Assembly: GCA_964486045.1 (NCBI GenBank)
Contig: CAZALK010000005.1
Coordinates: 190,713-254,712, forward strand
Length of the DNA: 64,000 bases
Direction: 5' to 3'
DNA from: an uncultured archaeon
GTDB taxonomy: Archaea > Asgardarchaeota > Lokiarchaeia > Sigyniarchaeales > SOKP01
Shown: positions 1 through 54,392 of the stretch, piece after piece
Layout: every line of letters starts with the position of its first letter
Position numbering within the stretch: position 1 is the stretch's first letter
Program-made: the position numbers and the translations under genes
Notes under the pieces: generated by a model
What the model was told of the DNA's origin: nothing
Seen by the model: the letters and a program-made list of their open reading frames with translations, nothing else
The model's database searches: none

Positions 1-348
1 ATCTTCAATCCAATCAATTTTAGCTAGCACTTCCACATCCTCATATTTAATTATTAATTCAGCTCGAATGATATTTCCCGTGATTTCGTCATAATCGAAT
101 GTTGTGGATTTATCTCCTACTATTTTATCTTTATCTAATTTAATTTTAACTGATTTGACAAAAGGCTGGCAACTAATTGCTGCTTCAATTCCATTTTCTA
201 TAGAACTAATAATTTTTTCGTCTGAACTTATAGGAATTCCACACAAAATATGATAAAGAGTACCTAGTTTAATTCCTGTTTCAAAACAAGCTCTCTCTCT
301 TAAGTTTAAACTCGATGAGAAATAGATCTTTTCATTTTTTCTTGACAT
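1..348 (-). CDS. mptD: Archaeal dihydroneopterin aldolase (MptD/DUF381 family), 3' end runs off the window
   Basis: Manual translation from ATG at 348: MSRKNEKIYFSSSLNLRERACFETGIKLGTLYHILCGIP...AAISCQPFV. The ERAxFExGIKLGxLYH motif is typical of the family, and the gene follows the RFAP synthase. Confidence 0.8.
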   Translation of the reverse strand, partial: MSRKNEKIYFSSSLNLRERACFETGIKLGTLYHILCGIPISSDEKIISSIENGIEAAISCQPFVKSVKIKLDKDKIVGDKSTTFDYDEITGNIIRAELIIKYEDVEVLAKIDWIED

Positions 349-354
349 AAAATA

Positions 355-1374
355 TCAGTCGAAATATTCAATTTTTGCTCCTGTATTATTCGGTTTACAG
401 ATATAAATATGCCCTCCACCGTTCTTCCGATTTTTTTGCACTTCTTTTAGAATAGCTTCCACTTCTGAATCAGATTCTACAATCCCAATAACGCTAGGAC
501 CAAATGAAGACATCCCATAAGCTTTTAATCCATATTCATCAAAAAATGTCAAAAGATTCTTAACAATTTCATTCTGAAGGTCAATTTCGATCTTTTTAAA
601 GCCAATATTTTGAATTCTTTTCAACCCTTCCCCAAAACACTTTAAGTCATTCTTTATAATCCCTGGAATCATTTTCATTATAATTTGATGAGAAACCTCA
701 TTTACTTCCTTTTGGGGAATTGGCGCGTAATTCTGAAAAACCCTAATTTCTTCATCCCCAAAAGCACCTTTTTTGACATCAGGAATTACTAATAAAAATC
801 TCCAATTTTCAGGGATGTTATGCCGAGAAATTGTTAATGCTGGATTCACTGAAGGGGAAGCAGATGAGGGTAAAAAAGTTTCTTTTTCTTTTCCAAACCC
901 AAAGTCATGTCCACCATCTAATATAAAACCTCCTGTCTCAAAACCACTCCAACCAATCCCAGATGTACCTCCCCTATTTACCATTTGAGTCATTTGTTTT
1001 ATAGATAAATGATTAATATTCTTCAATTTGGTTATCGCACTGATGATAGCTAAAGATAGTTGAGTTTTTGACCCTAGTCCTACGTGTGAGGGAAAGTATC
1101 TTTTAAGGTTGAAGTGGAAATTTTTATTACTAATATTAAATGTTTTAAATACTTTTGAAGCAATTTCATTGATTACTTCTATTGACTCTCTATAATATTT
1201 ATGAGCTTCAATCTGAAACTCCTCAGCACTATTTGAAGCCTCAAACACGACGTTAGGCTGATCTAACATAAGACCTATACCGCCATCAACTCGACCAGTA
1301 TACCCATTTTCATCTATTAAAGAAAGGTGTATGCGACATGGGGTTGTAATTCTTAAGGATGTCATATTTTTCAA
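355..1374 (-). CDS. Beta-ribofuranosylaminobenzene 5'-phosphate synthase (GHMP kinase family)
   Basis: TPCRIHLSLID, GRVDGGIG, PSHVGLGSKTQL, RGGTSGIG and GMSSFGP motifs. Confidence 0.88.
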   Translation of the reverse strand: MKNMTSLRITTPCRIHLSLIDENGYTGRVDGGIGLMLDQPNVVFEASNSAEEFQIEAHKYYRESIEVINEIASKVFKTFNISNKNFHFNLKRYFPSHVGLGSKTQLSLAIISAITKLKNINHLSIKQMTQMVNRGGTSGIGWSGFETGGFILDGGHDFGFGKEKETFLPSSASPSVNPALTISRHNIPENWRFLLVIPDVKKGAFGDEEIRVFQNYAPIPQKEVNEVSHQIIMKMIPGIIKNDLKCFGEGLKRIQNIGFKKIEIDLQNEIVKNLLTFFDEYGLKAYGMSSFGPSVIGIVESDSEVEAILKEVQKNRKNGGGHIYICKPNNTGAKIEYFD

Positions 1375-1586
1375 TTTAGAAGAGCAATTTCAACTATGAT
1401 TAAGAGTTTTTATAATAATTTAAATGTTTAATGTCTTCTAAACATAAATTTCTCAATAAATGGGAAATGTGTAGATTATTGACTCAATTAAAAGCAAATA
1501 ATCAGATTATTAATGATCAAAGAATTTTTCTTTTAGATTTTGCTATAAGATTTATTGCTAAAATTCGTAATAATAAGGTTGTTATA

Positions 1587-2099
1587 TTGAGTGATCTAGA
1601 AGGATTGACAAGGAATTTATTGAGTAAAGGATATACGGACCAACAAATTATTCAAAGATTGGTTCAGGAATATCATGACTTTAAAGAAATTGAAGATGCT
1701 TCAGCAGTTAAGCTTGCGGAAGCTATCTTAGATGAGTGCAGAAAAAGTGATAAAAATCTAATAACTGACTCCGTTATCAAAGATATATTAGATATAAATA
1801 AATCTGAAGTTACAGTAGGTAAGCAAGGTGTGGGATGTAGAGGTGCAGGAGATTTTTTTGTTCATAAATTAATCGCTGAATTGTCAGAAACAGGATCAAA
1901 AGCTTATTTAACTCCAGTTTCCTTAGATGATGCAGGAGCAGTCAATTTACTAGACATTAATGATAATATAAATTTATCAGGCTTAAAAGAAAATTTATTT
2001 ATTGTCTCAAAAATGGAAGGAATTCATTCTCGATTAAGCGATTTTCCATTTATCTGTGGTTTTCATGTTACTCGAGCGTGTTTAAGGGATTTACCTTAA
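1587..2099 (+). pseudogene. Truncated, intronless 5' paralog of the AIR-synthase-like gene at 4087
   Basis: Starts TTG-SDLEGLTR like the 4087 copy and shares GKQGVGCRGxGDFFVH and SKMEGIHSRLSDFPF. It stops at FHVTRACLRDLP*, where the full copy continues RDLYVKG. Confidence 0.8.
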
Positions 2100-2283
2100 A
2101 CTTTATACTATTATAAATAATTAAAATAATGAAATTATTATTATTTACAGAAATTCTGAAATTTAATACTGATACATCAGTATCAACTGTAAAGCCCTTT
2201 AGATTTATTGATAACTCTACATCAGAATAAGTTCGAAAATTTCTAGAAAAAAGATAATATCTATAAATTTGATTTCCTTAATT

Positions 2284-2502
2284 TTAACTTTTCTTTCTAT
2301 TTATTAAATAATCAAGTATATTCTCAATTTCTTCATCTTCTTTAAAGTAGATAGGTTGATCTCTTAGAGCAGATCCAAAGATATTTTGTATAAATTGTCC
2401 AAATCTCAAATCTGGGGAATTTTGCCACAGTTTTTCTATTTTTTCTAATATTCTCTTTATCCTCTTAGGATCGCGGTCTTCACTCCAAAGTTCTATAATC
2501 AT
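2284..2502 (-). CDS. Small hypothetical protein of the RDPKRI...PDLRFGQ type often seen in mobile or phage DNA
   Basis: 72-aa ORF with RDPKRIKRIL..W...PDLRFGQ; family recognition is from memory only. Confidence 0.55.
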   Translation of the reverse strand: MIIELWSEDRDPKRIKRILEKIEKLWQNSPDLRFGQFIQNIFGSALRDQPIYFKEDEEIENILDYLINRKKS

Positions 2503-2844
2503 GACCTCTTTTTCTTTACTGATTTAAATATGTTATTCTTTAACTCCCAAAAACAAAACTTAATAACAATTCTCCCAATCTTTGTTGAGGAAAATGGCTC
2601 CAAACCTCTTCTAATAATCGACATATCCTTTTAATTCTCTTCTTATCTCGCATAGTATATCCAATCTTCTAAATAATTTAAAAAAAAAAGACCACATCGA
2701 ATTATTAATTAAATCCTCACACTTTCATTTCTTTTTTTCAATAATCGGTTTTTTTATATCTAACAGAATCTTATGTTTAAAAAGATATTAATTAAACAAC
2801 CACAATTATGTAGATTATTCATAAAAAGGTTTTACAAATAACCC

Positions 2845-3073
2845 ATGAAATTAAAAAAACTATGGTTATTATATGAAATAATAGATAAGAACCCAGGATA
2901 TACCATTGATGAATTGCAACAGAAGGTAAAGTGGACAAGAAAAAAAATCACAAGATAATGCTAAAAAATTAGTTAGAGACAAAATAGTGCTACAACCAAA
3001 ATATTTTCCTACTCCATTCAAAGACTTAATTAATTGGGATGAAATAAAATATGCCAAAAAACCAATAGATTAA
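2845..3073 (+). pseudogene. Frameshifted small winged-HTH-like protein
   Basis: MKLKKLWLLYEIIDKNPGYTIDELQQKVKWTRKKITR* continues in the +1 frame as AKKLVRDKIVLQPKYFPTPFKDLINWDEIKYAKKPID*. The extra base lies near 2955. Confidence 0.5.
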
Positions 3074-3355
3074 ACAATTTCTTCCAAGTTAATCAAAAGA
3101 AGTCATTCATCAACTAAAAAATCGATAAATAGGATTTTCCATTGATAAATAGATTTTATCTTATCTGATTTAAGTAAAACTGTCGTCATTGAAATTAACG
3201 AAGAATACTTTCTTAACCTTCGAATTTTCTTAATACTATTGATCTTTGGGTTTTACTATAAAATCATATTATTTAAAAAATAAGGAAGTAGATGTAAGGC
3301 TATAAAAAAATGAAAATATATTTTATTTGATTATTAATGGGCATACATAATAGTA

Positions 3356-3469
3356 TTATGGTCCTCCTCCATCCCCCCAATGGCCCAATACCATGCTAGC
3401 CATAGGTATAAAGGAGGTAATGCCAACCAATACAAATAAAAGAACCTTATATAATTTAGTTAATTTCAT
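3356..3469 (-). CDS. 37-aa signal-peptide-like micropeptide
   Basis: MKLTKLYKVLLFVLVGITSFIPMASMVLGHWGDGGGP*: basic N-terminus, hydrophobic core, locally higher GC than the flanks. Confidence 0.4.
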   Translation of the reverse strand: MKLTKLYKVLLFVLVGITSFIPMASMVLGHWGDGGGP

Positions 3470-4086
3470 ACTACTAACCTTGTTATAAAATGAAATGAAT
3501 TTCCAGTGCTTTTACTGGTGTTATTATTTCTAAATACTTCTATTTAAACTGATATAATTTTCTTAATGAAGATTTTAATTAGATCAAATTGCTCTGGAAG
3601 TAATGCGAAAATATTAATAAAATCCTTATTAGGTTTTTAATAAAAAAATTCTAGCTAACTGGATAAGTATTTTATATTTCATAAAAAGAATTTTCTCTAC
3701 TTTCCATCAAGAAGTATTTTAATCGATAAAATAGAATTTTTCTAAAAAAAATATAGCAAGTTTTGAGGAATATAAGATTTTGTTGACTAAATACGTCTTT
3801 CTGATTTACAAAATTTTTGATTGTTCGGGATTTTGAATTGATTAATAGCTTAACTTATATTTTTTCATATCTTAGGTTAAATGGGCATATCTAAAATTTC
3901 GTTATATTATTCGTTCAAAATTATCAAATATATTTTGATTTGAGTAATATTCTTTTTAACTTATAGAAGTATAAGTAATAAAAGAGACTTTTCCTTAAAA
4001 AAAATAGATTTGATGGGGTAATATATTTTATAATCTCTATATTTAATAAATTAATATAGAATGATTTACATGCAAAGGTTTTATTT

Positions 4087-5493
4087 TTGAGTGATTTAGA
4101 AGGATTGACTAGAAAGTTAATGGAAAAAGGTTTTAAAAAGGAAGAAATCATTGTAAGGCTTGTTAATGAATATATGGATTTTAAAGACATTGACCAAGAG
4201 TCCGCAACTCTTCTTGCTGCAGCAATTTATGAAGAATGTAAAAAGAGCGATATAATAACTGTTTCAGATCCCTTTATAAGAAATTTGTTAGATATTAATA
4301 TGGCAAATGTAACTATTGGAAAACAAGGAGTGGGTTGTAGAGGATCAGGCGACTTTTTTGTTCATAAACTCGTTGCAGAGTTATCTGAAACAGAAATAAG
4401 GGCATATTTATCACCTAACTCCTTAGATGATGCTGGAGCTGTGAAGATTAGTGATATTGACGGATTTAAAACAGAAGATGATCTAATCATTGTATCTAAA
4501 ATGGAAGGAATTCATAGCCGCTTAAGTGACTTTCCATTCTTGTGTGGTTTTCACGTAAATTCATGTAATGCGTTTGTGTGAAGCGTATCGAGAGCTGCAC
4601 TACGAGATCTCTATGTTAAAGGCGCTAAGCCTATTTCAATAATGGTTGATGTACATCTAGGAGATGATGCAGACGTAGGTAAACTTTTTGATTTTATGGC
4701 AGGTATATCTTCTGTTTCAGAATTAGCAAATGTTCCAATAACAGCAGGTTCAACTTTGAGAATAGGTGGTGATATGGTTATAGGTAATCGATTGGTAGGG
4801 GGTGTAAGTGCTGTAGGTATCTGTACCAACTTATTGGCTAGGAGAAATATTAAAATTGGTGATAAGATACTAATGACTGAGGGAGCTGGTGGAGGTACAA
4901 TAACTACAACAGCGATCTATTCTGGGAATCACAATGTTGTCAAAGAAACAATGAATGTTAAGTTTCTTGAAGCTTGTGAAGTGTTATTAAATTCGGATTA
5001 CCTAAAAGACATTAGTGCTATGTGTGATGTTACAAATGGAGGACTTCGAGGAGATCTCTATGAAATTAACTATGAAGCTAACTGTGGTATGACAATATAT
5101 GAAAATGAGGTAAAAAAACTTGTAAATCTAAACGTTTTAAATCTTTTAGAGAAAGTGCAAGTTGATTATTTAGGTGTTTCTCTTGATGCTCTCCTAATTT
5201 ATTGTTCTGAATCTGCTTCAAAAAAAATTATTTCAGATTTAAAAAGAATAAGTATAAGATGTGCCGAGATTGGTTTCGTGAATGACTCAAAGGAAATATC
5301 CATGATATATTCCGATAAATCGAAAGAAAAAGTCCTTCCACGATTTCGAGAATCGGCATATACAAAAGTTAAACAAGTAATTGGTGAAGAAACTCCAGAA
5401 TTGATTAAAGTAATGGAAAAGAAAATTGAAGTCGCAGCCAACGCTGCTTTAGAAAAGCGTAACAATATTATAAGAATTATCAAAAATCTTTGA
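4087..5493 (+). CDS. AIR synthase/HypE/SelD-superfamily protein, 458 aa after removal of intron 4559-4588
   Basis: ORFs 4087-4581 and 4642-5493 are in the same frame, separated by a 30-nt insert containing TGA. The spliced junction reads FHVTRAALRDLYVKG. Also has the CDVTNGGLRGD motif. Confidence 0.88.
4559..4588 (+). other. BHB mRNA intron, 30 nt
   Basis: Outer helix tgtggttttc/gagagctgca, central helix acgt/gcgt, bulges aaa and atc, inner helix ttcatgtaa/ttgtgtgaa. Cuts aa|a and at|c give cac gta acg aga (HVTR). Confidence 0.9.
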
Positions 5494-42122: not shown

Positions 42123-42796
42123 TTAAATTTCTACTATTTCTTTTATATCTTCTTCTGTGAACTTTAAGGTGTTTTCAGCATTTACCTTTTTGATCTTATC
42201 CATTTCATCATAGTATTTAATTATTGGTTCAGCGTTTGCTTCATAAGCATCTAACCTGTTTTTGAGCGTTTCTTCATTATCATCACTTCTTTGTTGAAAC
42301 TTTATTTCTGAATCGCATTTATCACATAAACCTTCTACCTTAGGCGGGAGAGTATATTTGTTGTATAGTTTTCCACAGTTAGGACAGGAGTATCTACCTA
42401 AAATTCTTTTCATAATTAACTCTCTTGGGACTTCTAGGAGAAGTAATAAATCGATTTCGGTTATACTTGTTAATGCTTTTGCTTGGGAGATTGTACGAGG
42501 GAAACCATCAAGAATGAAACCTTCTGCCTTCACATCTTCCCTAGTTAGCCGATCTCGTACTATATCGATGGTTACATCATCAGGAACAAGTTCTCCCTTG
42601 TCCATATAGCTTTTTGCTTTTAATCCTAAAGGTGTTTCATTTTTTAGGTTTTCTCTAAATATATCTCCTGTACTGATATGGATAATATCTGGTAATACTT
42701 TTTTGATTTGCCCGGAAAATGTACCTTTTCTGGATTTTGGGACGCTCCCTAAAATTTTCCAGCCCCGGGGGGTCCAAATAATATTAATTTTTTCAT
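42123..42796 (-). CDS. adk: Adenylate kinase (bacterial type, Zn-LID), 214 aa after removal of intron 42728-42756
   Basis: Spliced N-terminus MKKLILFGPPGAGKGTFSGQI; HISTGDIFR, GELVPD, LDGFPRT, CPNC..CDKC and QRSDD motifs. Confidence 0.93.
42728..42756 (-). other. BHB/BHL mRNA intron, 29 nt, inside the adk P-loop
   Basis: Sense strand ctgg AAA atttt-a-ggga-gcg-tccc-aaaat ccag AAA. Cutting aa|a in both bulges gives gct gga aaa ggt (AGKG). Confidence 0.9.
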
Positions 42797-42880
42797 TTCG
42801 AGCTTCCTTATTAATTATATAAATATTTAGATTAGACATCTAAAATAATTAAAGAGATAAATTAATACATTAAAAAAAAC

Positions 42881-47849: not shown

Positions 47850-48375
47850 GTGAGTGAAAAAGGAAAAGTTGTTGTAATGGCTCTTGTAACTGGTGGTAGT
47901 GCATCAGGAGGGCCACCCATTGGACCCGCAGTTGGACCTACAGGCATAAACGTAAATCACCTCGATTATTGATGTATACATTAAAGATGTTGTTGACGAA
48001 ATAAATAGTCAAACAATGGTCTTTAAGGGTTTAACTGTACCGGTAAGAATAGAATGTGATCCCGAAACAAAACAATTTAAGATATTTGTTGAAACTCCTT
48101 CCACAGCATCATTATTACTTAAGGAGACTGGAGTAGAAAAGGGGAGCTCATCATGTTCAGAAGAAAAAATTGGTGATCTAACGATTGAGCAGGTTGTTGG
48201 TGTCGTTGAAGCAAAGAAAGGAAAGTTTTTAGATAAAACGTTTAAATCTGCTGTTAAAACAGCTCTAGGGACTGCATTATCTATAGGAATTACAGTTGAA
48301 GGTGAAGACCCCAGAGAAATTCAAAAAAAATTAGAAAATGGAGAATTTGATGACAAAATCAAAGGTGTATTGTAA
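47850..48375 (+). CDS. rpl11: 50S ribosomal protein uL11, 165 aa after removal of intron 47950-47977
   Basis: GTG start; MSEKGKVVVMALVTGGSASGGPPIGPAVGPTGIN|IKDVVDEINSQTMVFKG. The ORF track shows only the 3' exon. Confidence 0.93.
47950..47977 (+). other. BHB/BHL mRNA intron, 28 nt
   Basis: Central helix gcat/atgt, bulges aaa and ata, inner pairs cg/tg and aatc/gatt. Cuts aa|a and at|a give ggc ata aac att aaa (GINIK). Confidence 0.85.
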
Positions 48376-53995: not shown

Positions 53996-54093
53996 ATAAA
54001 TTCAACTTTGAAAACAAACTTATTGAATTCATGTATAATAAAGCAACGGGGAGTATTTCTTTAACTTCTTTTTATGAGTATAAAGAAATGATA

Positions 54094-54192
54094 CGCAGAC
54101 AGAGGGATTCGAACCCCCGAGTGCATTCGCACACTGGCTTTCTGGGAGTATTCCCGCTCCAAGCCAGCGCCGTACCGCTAGGCAATGTCTGC
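54094..54192 (-). tRNA. tRNA-Ser(GGA) with canonical 37/38 intron (54140-54156, 17 nt)
   Basis: GCAGACA/TGTCTGC acceptor stem, CTGGC-TTGGAGA-GCCAG after splicing, long variable arm, TTCGAAT, G73. BHB is ttgg AGC ggg..ctc ccag AAA. Confidence 0.92.
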
Positions 54193-54392
54193 AAAAAATC
54201 TGATCAGATTATTTCAGTATTATTTTCAATATAAGGATTCAAAATTTTAATATTTTATCTAATGAATTTTGAAAATAAAAATCGAAAATAATTTATTTTT
54301 ACTTGAATTTACTAAGTTACTTCAAATTGATGTAATTTACTGGAAATATACTACACCAGTAACTAAACAAATAATTTGGTGACAAATTACAT

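What the first reader, a model, noticed from the sequence alone, without database searches (positions are those of the whole stretch)
4543..4599. Textbook strict BHB intron in the AIR-synthase-like gene, corroborated by its neighbouring paralog
A 10-bp exon-exon helix (tgtggttttc/gagagctgca), a 4-bp central helix (acgt/gcgt), two 3-nt bulges and a 9-bp intron helix are all present, counting G-U pairs. EndA-rule cuts create an ACG codon and give FHVTRA, matching the intronless paralog at about 2060 (FHVTRA). Simply deleting between the cgta repeats would give FHVSRA, so the Thr match independently supports the BHB cut sites.
Basis: seen in the sequence. Interest (0 to 1): 0.88.

Follow-up and report, generated by a model that had tools for sequence, protein, structure and literature searches.

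The report
tRNA-type mini-intron in Asgard protein gene
A 30-base insert that breaks a conserved enzyme gene of a Loki-type Asgard archaeon has the RNA shape that the tRNA-splicing enzyme cuts, and comparison with about 40 relatives suggests it is spliced out of the mRNA and has spread between species with the front half of the gene.

Summary
Window 4559-4588 is a 30-nt insert in the PurM/AIR-synthase-like gene 4087-5493(+). It folds into a strict helix-bulge-helix-bulge-helix motif: an 11-bp exon helix, a 4-bp central helix, two 3-nt bulges and a 9-bp intron helix.

The intron reading is strongly supported by comparison. No RNA data exist.
- About 35 congeneric orthologs have no insert and read FHV-T/A-RA.
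- Ten genomes and 18 further distinct metagenome variants carry the insert at the same nucleotide.
- One insert (G024) is 29 nt and shifts the frame. One (G059) has two in-frame TGAs.
- Cutting after the second base of each bulge restores an intact 458-470-aa ORF and the Thr codon in every complete gene.
- Codons between the TGA and the next ATG vary almost only synonymously.
- The genome encodes two EndA paralogs and RtcB.

A Sec insert, a pseudogene, a split gene and ribosome hopping are all contradicted.

Three corrections and additions:
- The "paralog" is a displaced 5' fragment of the resident gene.
- Exon 1, the intron and 8 codons form a cassette that moved among species, always ending at codon 165/166.
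- A second 30-nt BHB insert sits in a thiolase gene, and adk and uL11 in this window carry frameshifting 29- and 28-nt inserts.

In print I found only cbf5 of Crenarchaeota. This scan has reported similar mRNA introns before on other DNA.

The parts
4087..4558 (+). Exon 1 of the PurM/AIR-synthase-like gene: codons 1-157 plus the first base (A) of the Thr158 codon. TTG start as listed; the true start was not verified.
   Evidence: ORF list and translation. Aligns without gaps to orthologs. dN/dS is 0.19 against G024 exon 1.
4559..4588 (+). 30-nt BHB intron, phase 1 (attcatgtaatgcgtttgtgtgaagcgtat).
   Evidence: Absent from about 35 congeneric orthologs; present at the same nucleotide in 10 genomes and 23 metagenome contigs. 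Its excision restores FHVTRA and a full ORF.
4589..5493 (+). Exon 2: the CG of the Thr codon through the stop at 5491-5493. Holds the AIRS and AIRS_C domains.
   Evidence: Pfam PF00586 and PF02769. dN/dS is 0.09 against G013 exon 2. Codons 159-175 differ only synonymously between G000 and G024.
4542..4552 (+). 5' strand of the exon-exon (outer, h) helix.
   Evidence: Pairs with 4590-4600, 11 bp. 100% of cells paired in 28 sequences. Lowest synonymous diversity of any 9-codon window of exon 1.
4590..4600 (+). 3' strand of the outer helix.
   Evidence: As above. The variable positions (gct/gcc, gca/aca, tgt/tgc) all keep the pair.
4553..4556 (+). 5' strand of the 4-bp central helix H (acgt).
   Evidence: Pairs with 4583-4586. 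96% of cells paired. The first pair is A.G in 4 of 28 sequences.
4583..4586 (+). 3' strand of the central helix (gcgt).
4557..4559 (+). 5' bulge (aaa); predicted cut between 4558 and 4559.
   Evidence: Geometry read. The cut rule was validated on the tRNA-Ser intron of this window.
4587..4589 (+). 3' bulge (atc); predicted cut between 4588 and 4589.
   Evidence: As above.
4560..4582 (+). Intron hairpin h': 9-bp stem (4560-4568 with 4574-4582) and 5-nt loop.
   Evidence: 96% of cells paired in 28 sequences. Pairs 4-7 vary (C-G/U-G/U-A; G-C/G-U/A-U; U-G/U-A/C-G). Covariation score 0.153 against 0.130 in shuffles, reached by 2 of 500.
4579..4581 (+). In-frame TGA inside the intron. It stops translation of unspliced mRNA after 164 codons.
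   Evidence: The TGA triplet is invariant in 28 sequences, where it forms part of the stem next to the central helix. It is out of frame in G024.
1431..2099 (+). Displaced, intronless 5' fragment of the resident allele. Homology runs 1587-2096 and it ends at codon 165 (…FHVTRACLRDL).
   Evidence: 83% aa identical to G013 exon 1 and sister to it at 100% support, against 66% to the window's own exon 1. Window 2-2094 is collinear with G013.
2080..2101 (.). 8-6-8 palindrome gtttaagg-gattta-ccttaaac exactly at the break of the displaced fragment.
Evidence: Read.
2097..4086 (.). About 2 kb of inserted, AT-rich, almost non-coding DNA. Its last ~140 nt (3948-4086) is the upstream region that travels with the intron-bearing exon 1.
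   Evidence: No counterpart in G013 or G024. 3948-4086 is shared with G063, G060, G067, G047, G053 and G062. Only weak DUF1040 and HTH hits, no recombinase.

Best explanation
Window 4559-4588 is an archaeal bulge-helix-bulge (tRNA-type) intron inside a protein-coding mRNA.

Proposed mechanism (inferred):
- The transcript folds so that exon bases 4542-4552 and 4590-4600 form the outer helix.
- Bases 4553-4556 and 4583-4586 form the 4-bp central helix, and the intron forms its own 9-bp hairpin.
- The host's two-subunit splicing endonuclease (EndA alpha/beta) cuts after the second base of each 3-nt bulge.
- RtcB joins the exons (…cacgtaa|cgagagct…). This creates the ACG Thr158 codon and an mRNA for a 458-aa PurM-superfamily protein.
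- The 30-nt intron is released, probably as a circle.
- Unspliced mRNA terminates at the TGA within the intron.

Shown here: the fold, its exact position relative to orthologs, conservation of the fold, purifying selection on both exons, and the presence of the enzymes.

Inferred: cleavage and ligation in vivo.

Second layer, shown by trees and breakpoints: the intron does not follow the species. Exon 1, the intron and the first 8 codons of exon 2 behave as one transferable module. It has replaced the resident 5' half of the gene in several species of the genus, always ending at codon 165/166. In this genome the displaced resident 5' half is still present at 1431-2099.
For: 1. Presence/absence at one nucleotide. 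The 24 intronless orthologs read base by base all show a single codon between FHV and RA. A further 17 or so genus orthologs show an uninterrupted open frame of intronless length. Ten genomes carry an insert there.

2. Exact restoration. Excision by the BHB rule gives FHVTRA and an intact ORF of 458-497 aa in all 8 complete intron-bearing genes. G042 and G053 are cut by contig ends.

3. Not translatable. The G024 insert is 29 nt. Unspliced reading frameshifts and stops after about 24 codons, yet the 301-codon exon 2 is intact. G059 has two in-frame TGAs.

4. Selection. dN/dS is 0.09-0.19 for both exons. Codons 159-175, which lie between the TGA and the next ATG, differ at 5 synonymous and 0 non-synonymous sites between G000 and G024. 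Both exons must therefore be read as one frame.

5. Structure.
- The MFE is exactly hBHBh' in 7 of 10 genomes.
- 97.8% of 644 cells are paired in 28 distinct sequences, against 30-56% when the 3' partners are slid.
- The covariation score was reached by 2 of 500 shuffles, and cells changed on both sides by 10 of 500.

6. Exon constraint. Synonymous diversity of the 9 exon codons that build the helix is 0.098 in intron-bearing genes. That is lower than all 144 other 9-codon windows of exon 1. It is 0.459 in intronless genes.

7. Machinery. Two PF01974 EndA paralogs (102 and 67 bits) and one RtcB (557 bits) are in the genome. Asgard EndA is reported as the broad-specificity (alpha-beta)2 type (PMC5829648).

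8. The cut rule reproduces the canonical 37/38 tRNA-Ser intron of this window.

9. Not unique in the genome.
- A thiolase gene (G000:C3) has a 30-nt strict-bulge BHB insert. Its excision gives M-D-A, as in 10 orthologs that are 90-95% identical and 30 nt shorter.
- adk and uL11 in this window are split by 29- and 28-nt frameshifting inserts.

Cassette: in the exon-1 tree a 99% branch separates 18 of the 19 intronless genus sequences. All 10 intron-bearing sequences lie on the other side, with intronless G002 (3 label changes). In the exon-2 tree they are scattered (8 changes, at least 5 forced). The signature switches at codon 165/166.
Against: - No RNA evidence: no RNA run holding this DNA was listed, so splicing is inferred only.
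- In G000 itself the BHB fold is not the MFE (-15.1 against -15.4 kcal/mol). It is rich in G-U pairs, and the z-score of the 57-mer is only -1.9.
- Covariation is modest. With the 10 genomes alone it does not exceed shuffles. Most changes go through G-U.
- 4 of 28 sequences break the first central-helix pair (A.G), and a few have one mismatch in the intron stem.
- The metagenome variants were found with a pattern that fixed columns 4-14, 16, 18-20 and 38-53. Invariance there is partly by construction.
- 27 of 28 inserts are 30 nt with the TGA in frame, which a pure non-coding model does not require.
- The genome-wide motif scan shows no excess of 30-nt ORF-fusing strict motifs over other lengths.
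Confidence: 0.87

Rival explanations
1. The 30 nt are translated. The TGA encodes selenocysteine, giving a lineage-specific 10-residue Sec-containing loop (NSCNAFVUSV).
For: The genome has a tRNA-Sec (C15:137829-137921). The insert is a multiple of 3 with the TGA in frame in 27 of 28 variants, and the TGA triplet is invariant.
Against: - The G024 insert is 29 nt and puts the TGA out of frame, yet the gene is intact.
- G059 would need two Sec residues.
- The peptide differs at 7 of 10 positions among ten close relatives, while the flanking motif is invariant.
- No homolog has any residue here, so there is no Cys/Sec alignment.
- The 3' UTR is only 2 nt before a convergent gene.
- No SECIS family hit at Rfam gathering thresholds. 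A dedicated archaeal SECIS model was not run.
Confidence: 0.02
2. The gene is dead or split. Either the insert with its stop codon inactivated it (pseudogene), or the two halves are made as separate polypeptides (4087-4581 and 4642-5493).
For: Table-11 ORF calling gives exactly these two ORFs. An ATG exists at 4642.
Against: - Both halves are intact in 10 genomes and 23 contigs in a 31% GC genome.
- dN/dS is 0.09-0.19.
- Codons 159-175 lie between the stop and the ATG and would be untranslated. They encode the invariant RAALRDLYVKGAKPISI and change almost only synonymously.
- In G024 exon 2 is in another frame, yet is still conserved.
Confidence: 0.04
3. Translational bypass (ribosome hopping, as in T4 gene 60) from GTA 4555-4557 to GTA 4585-4587 over the hairpin, giving FHVSRA.
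For: Matching GTA take-off and landing codons flank a stable hairpin in G000. This would also tolerate the 29-nt variant.
Against: - The landing codon is GGA, not GTA, in G062, G053, L050 and L067. The take-off codon is GTT in G060.
- The product would carry Ser where all intronless orthologs have Thr or Ala.
- There is no stop directly after the take-off codon.
- The thiolase and adk inserts have no matching codon pairs.
Confidence: 0.02
4. The fold is a by-product of a DNA-level event: a small palindromic insertion with a 4-bp cgta duplication. The RNA is removed or tolerated by some other, unknown route.
For: cgta direct repeats flank the insert, and the intron stem is an inverted repeat. 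The insert travels with DNA-level recombination events.
Against: It does not explain why the bulge and helix geometry, and the exon synonymous sites that build the outer helix, are conserved. It also does not explain why only the EndA cut rule restores Thr.
Confidence: 0.05

Closest known systems
BHB intron of the cbf5 (pseudouridine synthase) pre-mRNA in Crenarchaeota (Watanabe 2002; Yoshinari 2006; Yokobori 2009, PMC2738675)
   Same: A short BHB intron inside a protein-coding sequence. The host has a hetero-oligomeric (alpha-beta)2 EndA. Distribution among relatives is patchy. Gene finders miscall it as a frameshift or a split gene.
   Different: Different gene (a PurM-superfamily enzyme of unknown role) and a different lineage (a Loki-type Asgard genus). 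Only 30 nt, strict hBHBh'. The distribution reflects lateral replacement of the whole 5' exon rather than vertical gain and loss. No RT-PCR proof exists here.
Canonical archaeal tRNA introns (for example the 17-nt intron of tRNA-Ser(GGA) at window 54093-54193)
   Same: Same motif geometry and the same cut rule. Presumably the same enzymes, EndA and RtcB.
   Different: The outer helix is built from codons, not from an anticodon stem, so synonymous sites of nine codons are constrained.
Mobile introns with co-conversion of flanking exons (group I/II intron homing)
   Same: The intron and adjoining exon sequence are shared between otherwise divergent genes. The AIRS cassette ends 25 nt 3' of the intron. 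The thiolase intron shares 25 nt and 16 nt of flanks between two paralogous genes in two species.
   Different: It has no ribozyme or ORF and is far too small. No homing endonuclease or integrase lies next to it. A displaced copy of the resident exon remains, which homing does not leave behind.
Integrative elements that rebuild their target gene with their own copy of its end (for example tRNA-gene-targeting archaeal elements)
   Same: A displaced resident fragment, then variable inserted DNA, then a foreign replacement fragment fused in frame at one fixed point. A palindrome sits at the break.
   Different: No recombinase gene was found in any of the six inserts examined. No identical att core is recognisable. 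Cargo is ordinary cellular genes or decayed DNA.

Membership tests
Archaeal BHB (EndA-spliced) intron | [quoted passage not shown] | tested here: met
   4557-4559 and 4587-4589 flank acgt/gcgt. The arrangement is kept in 24 of 28 sequences; 4 have A.G at the first central pair.
Archaeal BHB (EndA-spliced) intron | Flanking helices h (exon) and h' (intron), that is the strict hBHBh' form | tested here: met
   11-bp outer and 9-bp inner helix. The MFE equals this fold in 7 of 10 genomes.
Archaeal BHB (EndA-spliced) intron | Removal at the bulge positions yields the functional product | tested here: met
   Gives FHVTRA and a full-length ORF in every complete gene. This is the only frame-keeping 30-nt deletion that gives Thr.
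Archaeal BHB (EndA-spliced) intron | Host encodes the splicing endonuclease and the RtcB ligase | tested here: met
   Two PF01974 hits (G000:C7:36595-36819 and C10:137165-137410) and one PF01139 hit (C1:512216-513523).
Archaeal BHB (EndA-spliced) intron | Structure maintained by pair-preserving or compensatory substitutions | tested here: met
   12 further pair types and 9 cells changed on both sides. The covariation score was reached by 2 of 500 shuffles. Weak with the 10 genomes alone.
Archaeal BHB (EndA-spliced) intron | Cleavage and ligation observed in RNA (spliced junction, circular intron) | not testable with these tools
   No RNA run holding this DNA was listed.
cbf5 pre-mRNA intron family | Intron located in the cbf5 gene of Crenarchaeota | tested here: not met
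   The host gene matches AIRS and AIRS_C. NCBIfam gives only sub-threshold ThiL, HypE and SelD hits. The organism is a 5.2-Mb, 31% GC, Loki-like archaeon.
Selenoprotein (UGA = Sec) | The in-frame UGA stays readable in all functional homologs and aligns to Cys/Sec | tested here: not met
   The 29-nt insert in G024 puts the TGA out of frame. G059 has two TGAs. Homologs have no residue at this place.
Selenoprotein (UGA = Sec) | SECIS element in the 3' UTR | tested here: inconclusive
   Nothing at Rfam gathering thresholds, and the gene abuts a convergent gene 2 nt after its stop. No dedicated archaeal or Loki SECIS model was run.
Programmed translational bypass (gene 60 type) | Matched take-off and landing codons, and a product consistent with homologs | tested here: not met
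   GTA/GTA in G000, but GGA at the landing site in G062, G053, L050 and L067. The product would be Ser, not Thr.
Site-specific integrative element rebuilding its target gene | Displaced target fragment and replacement fragment joined at one fixed point | tested here: met
   The fragments in G000 and G048 both end at …RDL (codon 165). Remnants lie upstream in G063, G047, L047 and L068. The sequence signature switches at codon 165/166 in the intron-bearing genes aligned.
Site-specific integrative element rebuilding its target gene | Element-encoded integrase or recombinase and a repeated att core | tested here: not met
   No recombinase domain in the inserts of G000, G063, L063 and L057. No identical core was seen at the two junctions. 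Only an 8-6-8 palindrome lies at 2080-2101.

The most novel reading that the evidence does not exclude
This Loki-type genus holds a population of about 30-nt BHB mini-introns in protein-coding genes, including essential ones (adk, uL11). These introns are mobile at the DNA level. They move between species, and even between paralogous genes, together with adjoining exon sequence. In the AIRS gene the intron rides on a replacement 5' gene half that is installed at one fixed site (codon 165/166) along with variable cargo DNA. That would be an active intron gain-and-spread system for mRNAs in the closest prokaryotic relatives of eukaryotes, independent of group II introns.
Probability: 0.45. Interest if true: 0.9.

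Novelty: new member of a known kind. Interest (0 to 1): 0.78.

Why it matters
In the papers I could search, cbf5 of Crenarchaeota is the one archaeal protein-coding sequence with demonstrated tRNA-type splicing. Introns in other genes were only predicted (PMC2738675, PMC5829648).

This case matters for three reasons:
1. It is well supported comparatively and lies in an Asgard archaeon, the group closest to eukaryotes. That bears directly on whether interrupted protein genes and protein-enzyme mRNA splicing existed on the archaeal side before eukaryotes.
2. It shows concretely that gene callers split or truncate such genes. Here they give ORFs of 164 and 283 aa instead of one 458-aa protein, and spurious N-termini for adk and uL11.
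3. The cassette pattern gives a testable picture of how such an intron spreads without any ribozyme or encoded enzyme.

It also raises the question of how splicing competes with coupled transcription and translation. All four inserts examined carry an in-frame stop.

Tried and rejected
- RNA evidence: the look-up of sequencing runs (kinds 'any' and 'rna') listed no RNA holder, only DNA metagenome runs from marine sediment. I did not lay reads, because DNA contigs cannot show splicing.
- Covariation with the 10 genomes alone was not better than shuffles. It needed the 18 additional metagenome variants.
- Genome-wide discovery of further mRNA introns with strict contiguous helices:
  - ORF-fusing hits show no peak at 30 nt.
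  - Most hits are intergenic spacers between same-strand genes, for example C8:124037, an ABC permease/ATPase junction.
  - C10:115130 (esterase) and C9:4929 were not convincing.
  - The scan misses relaxed motifs such as the one in adk.
- Search for a recombinase. The inserted DNA in G000 (2097-4086), G063, L063 and L057 holds only weak DUF1040 and HTH hits, or TPR, response-regulator, DUF389, amino-acid-permease and NosD/beta-helix genes.
- The 2-kb insert has only short patches of similarity elsewhere in the genome and none to the G013 or G024 loci.
- Literature searches found no report of BHB introns in Asgard protein-coding genes.
- Hypotheses rejected: Sec, pseudogene, split gene and ribosome hopping (see rivals).
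- Not done: a fold of the protein to place the insert in the PurM fold; a dedicated SECIS search; a check of the catalytic residues of EndA.
Full report
**What is there**

The window is G000:C5:190713-254712. The assembly is 5.18 Mb in 45 contigs at 31% GC. Its tRNA genes are heavily interrupted, and it has a tRNA-Sec. Matching metagenome contigs include LAZR01… records from marine sediment. By my own recollection, untested here, these belong to the Lokiarchaeum GC14_75 data set. I therefore treat the organism as a Loki-type Asgard archaeon.

The gene at 4087-5493(+) carries Pfam AIRS and AIRS_C domains. NCBIfam gives only sub-threshold ThiL, HypE, SelD and sll0787 hits. It is a PurM-superfamily enzyme of unknown specific role. 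Its neighbours are a GHMP-kinase-like gene and a PP-loop ATPase-like gene. Read by table 11, the frame stops at TGA 4579-4581 and then continues in the same frame.

**The observation**

- The exon helix 4543-4552/4590-4599 extends to 11 bp.
- The central helix is acgt/gcgt.
- The bulges are aaa and atc.
- The intron stem has 9 bp and a 5-nt loop.

Cutting after the second base of each bulge removes 4559-4588. The same rule, applied to the tRNA-Ser(GGA) gene of this window, removes a 17-nt intron at the canonical 37/38 position and leaves an intron-free tRNA.

The fold alone is not overwhelming.
- In G000 it is isoenergetic with the MFE (-15.1 against -15.4 kcal/mol).
- A genome-wide scan finds 4 motifs of this quality, where about 1 is expected.
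- It is, however, by far the best motif in the genome whose removal fuses two long ORFs.

**Comparative test**

I searched 41 relatives, then all 54 genomes of the genus.
- About 35 congeneric orthologs, and all order-level orthologs found, have an uninterrupted gene.
- In the 24 read base by base, exactly one codon lies between FHV and RA. In the 32 aligned it is Thr in all but two (Ala).
- Ten genomes carry an insert at the same nucleotide: G000, G024, G042, G047, G053, G059, G060, G062, G063 and G067.
- A DNA pattern search added 23 metagenome contigs holding 18 further distinct variants.

The BHB rule restores FHVTRA and a full-length ORF in every complete gene.

Three facts exclude reading the insert as protein.
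1. The G024 insert is 29 nt. Unspliced reading frameshifts and stops within about 24 codons, yet its 301-codon exon 2 is intact.
2. G059 has two in-frame TGAs.
3. The encoded peptide differs at 7 of 10 positions among ten close relatives, while the surrounding motif (SRLSDFPF.CGFHVTRA.LRDLYVKGA) is almost invariant.

Both exons are under purifying selection, with dN/dS 0.09-0.19. The codons between the TGA and the next ATG (159-175) show 5 synonymous and 0 non-synonymous differences between G000 and G024. This excludes a split gene made as two polypeptides.

**Structure conservation**

- In 7 of 10 genomes the MFE of the 56-57-mer is exactly hBHBh', at -19 to -25.5 kcal/mol.
- Over 28 distinct sequences, 97.8% of cells pair, against 30-56% when the 3' partners are slid.
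- Stem pairs 4-7 vary with pair-keeping changes: C-G/U-G/U-A, G-C/G-U/A-U and U-G/U-A/C-G.
- The covariation score was reached by 2 of 500 shuffles. With the ten genomes alone it was not significant.

Caveats: the pattern search fixed many columns, and four sequences have A.G at the first central pair, which is a relaxed form.

Independent support comes from the exons. The nine codons that build the helix have the lowest synonymous diversity of any window of exon 1 in intron-bearing genes (0.098; 0 of 144 windows are as low). The same codons vary freely in intronless genes (0.459).

**Machinery**

The genome has two EndA (PF01974) paralogs and one RtcB. Asgard EndA is described as (alpha-beta)2 with the L1 loop that confers broad specificity (PMC5829648).

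**The 'paralog' and the cassette**

The copy at 1431-2099 is a 3'-truncated fragment ending …FHVTRACLRDLP*.
- It is 83% identical to G013 exon 1 and sister to it.
- Window 2-2094 is collinear with the G013 locus up to that point.
- Exon 2 of the full gene is also G013-like.
- Exon 1, the intron and the first 8 codons of exon 2 are G024-like, with the switch at about codons 165-170.

In trees, a 99% branch separates 18 of the 19 intronless genus exon-1 sequences. All ten intron-bearing ones lie on the other side on short branches, with intronless G002. Their exon-2 sequences are scattered among intronless species, with at least 5 label changes forced. The shared signature ends at codon 165/166 (…cga gat ctc tat) in the intron-bearing genes aligned.

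Other genomes show the same architecture.
- G048 has a decayed resident fragment that ends at the same RDL. There the replacement copy is intronless.
- G063, G047, L047 and L068 keep remnants of a resident exon 1 upstream.
- Between the upstream GHMP gene, or the remnant, and the cassette lie 1.2-6.2 kb of unrelated DNA: decayed sequence, TPR, response regulator, DUF389, a permease and a NosD-like protein. No recombinase is present.
- In G024, G062, L052, L055 and L062 the cassette abuts the GHMP gene directly.
- An 8-6-8 palindrome lies exactly at the break in G000 (2080-2101; lead from e1-5505156).

My reading is that a site-specific insertion or replacement process acts at codon 165/166, and that the intron hitch-hikes on the replacement 5' half. 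The mechanism and the enzyme are unknown.

**Not an isolated case**

- My ORF-fusion and paralog screen independently recovered a 30-nt strict-bulge BHB insert in a thiolase-like gene (G000:C3:186175-186204, four codons after the catalytic Cys). Excision gives M-D-A. Ten orthologs that are 90-95% identical are 30 nt shorter and read atg gat gct.
- G022 carries the same insert, with 1 nt changed, in a gene only 77% identical. It shares 25 nt and 16 nt of identical exon flanks with G000, and these flanks differ from G022's own ortholog at 7 synonymous sites.
- In this window, adk (29 nt, 42728-42756, minus strand, inside the P-loop GPPGAGK|GT) and uL11 (28 nt, about 47950-47979) are split by frameshifting inserts. 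Their downstream parts match the families only from profile positions 25 and 32 onward.
- Earlier notes of this scan list more candidates in this genome, and followed-up cases in other genomes. I tested only those named above.

**Verdict**

It is a new member of a known kind, the archaeal BHB pre-mRNA intron, known in print from cbf5. The gene and the lineage are new, and there is unusually clear evidence of lateral spread. Direct RNA proof is missing.

Noticed in passing
G000:C3:186175-186204 (gene 185862-187106, + strand; locus L070:1176-1205): A second 30-nt strict-bulge BHB insert, in a thiolase-like gene four codons after the catalytic Cys. It is phase 1, with an in-frame TGA at intron bases 21-23, as in the AIRS intron. 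Ten orthologs that are 90-95% identical lack it. G022 carries the same insert, with identical short exon flanks, in a paralogous gene only 77% identical.
   Followed up: yes
window 42728-42756 (minus strand), adk gene 42123-42796: A 29-nt frameshifting insert inside the Walker A loop of adenylate kinase (MKKLILFGPPGAGK|GTFSGQ). The central helix is ctgg/ccag, both bulges are aaa, and there is no adjacent outer helix (relaxed form). The called ORF 42123-42839 has a spurious N-terminus.
   Followed up: partly
window 47850-48375 (+), insert about 47950-47979: Ribosomal protein uL11 is split by a 28-nt frameshifting insert that contains a TGA. Exon 2 matches the L11 profile only from position 32. 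A gcat/atgt central helix with aaa and ata bulges is possible, but the intron stem is weak.
   Followed up: partly
window 1431-4086, and G048:C450, G063:C30, G047:C44, L047, L068, L063, L057: The spot upstream of the AIRS gene is a variable islet. Displaced resident exon-1 fragments all end at codon 165. They are followed by 1.2-6.2 kb of unrelated cargo or decayed DNA, with no recombinase found. G000 has an 8-6-8 palindrome at 2080-2101 at the break.
   Followed up: partly
window 54093-54193 (minus strand): tRNA-Ser(GGA) has a canonical 17-nt BHB intron at position 37/38 (central helix ttgg/ccag, bulges agc and aaa). I used it to validate the cut rule.
   Followed up: yes
G000:C3:187693 (L=32) and G000:C1:759270 (L=30): The relaxed motif scan also picked ORF-fusing inserts in a MoxR-like AAA ATPase (…LLIDEIDKAD|IEFPNDLL…), next to the thiolase gene, and in a SelD-like gene (…GGHTIYSEWPL|IGGEASG…). 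They are plausible further mRNA introns. I did not compare them with orthologs.
   Followed up: no
G000 whole genome: ARAGORN finds only 31 tRNA genes. Twenty are called with introns, many at odd positions or with wrong identities ('tRNA-Stop', 'tRNA-Pyl'). Only 6 are resolved by a single BHB excision, so most probably carry several introns.
   Followed up: no
G000 contigs C40 and C45: Two short contigs have 58-59% GC against 31% for the rest of the assembly. They are probably contaminants in the bin.
   Followed up: no
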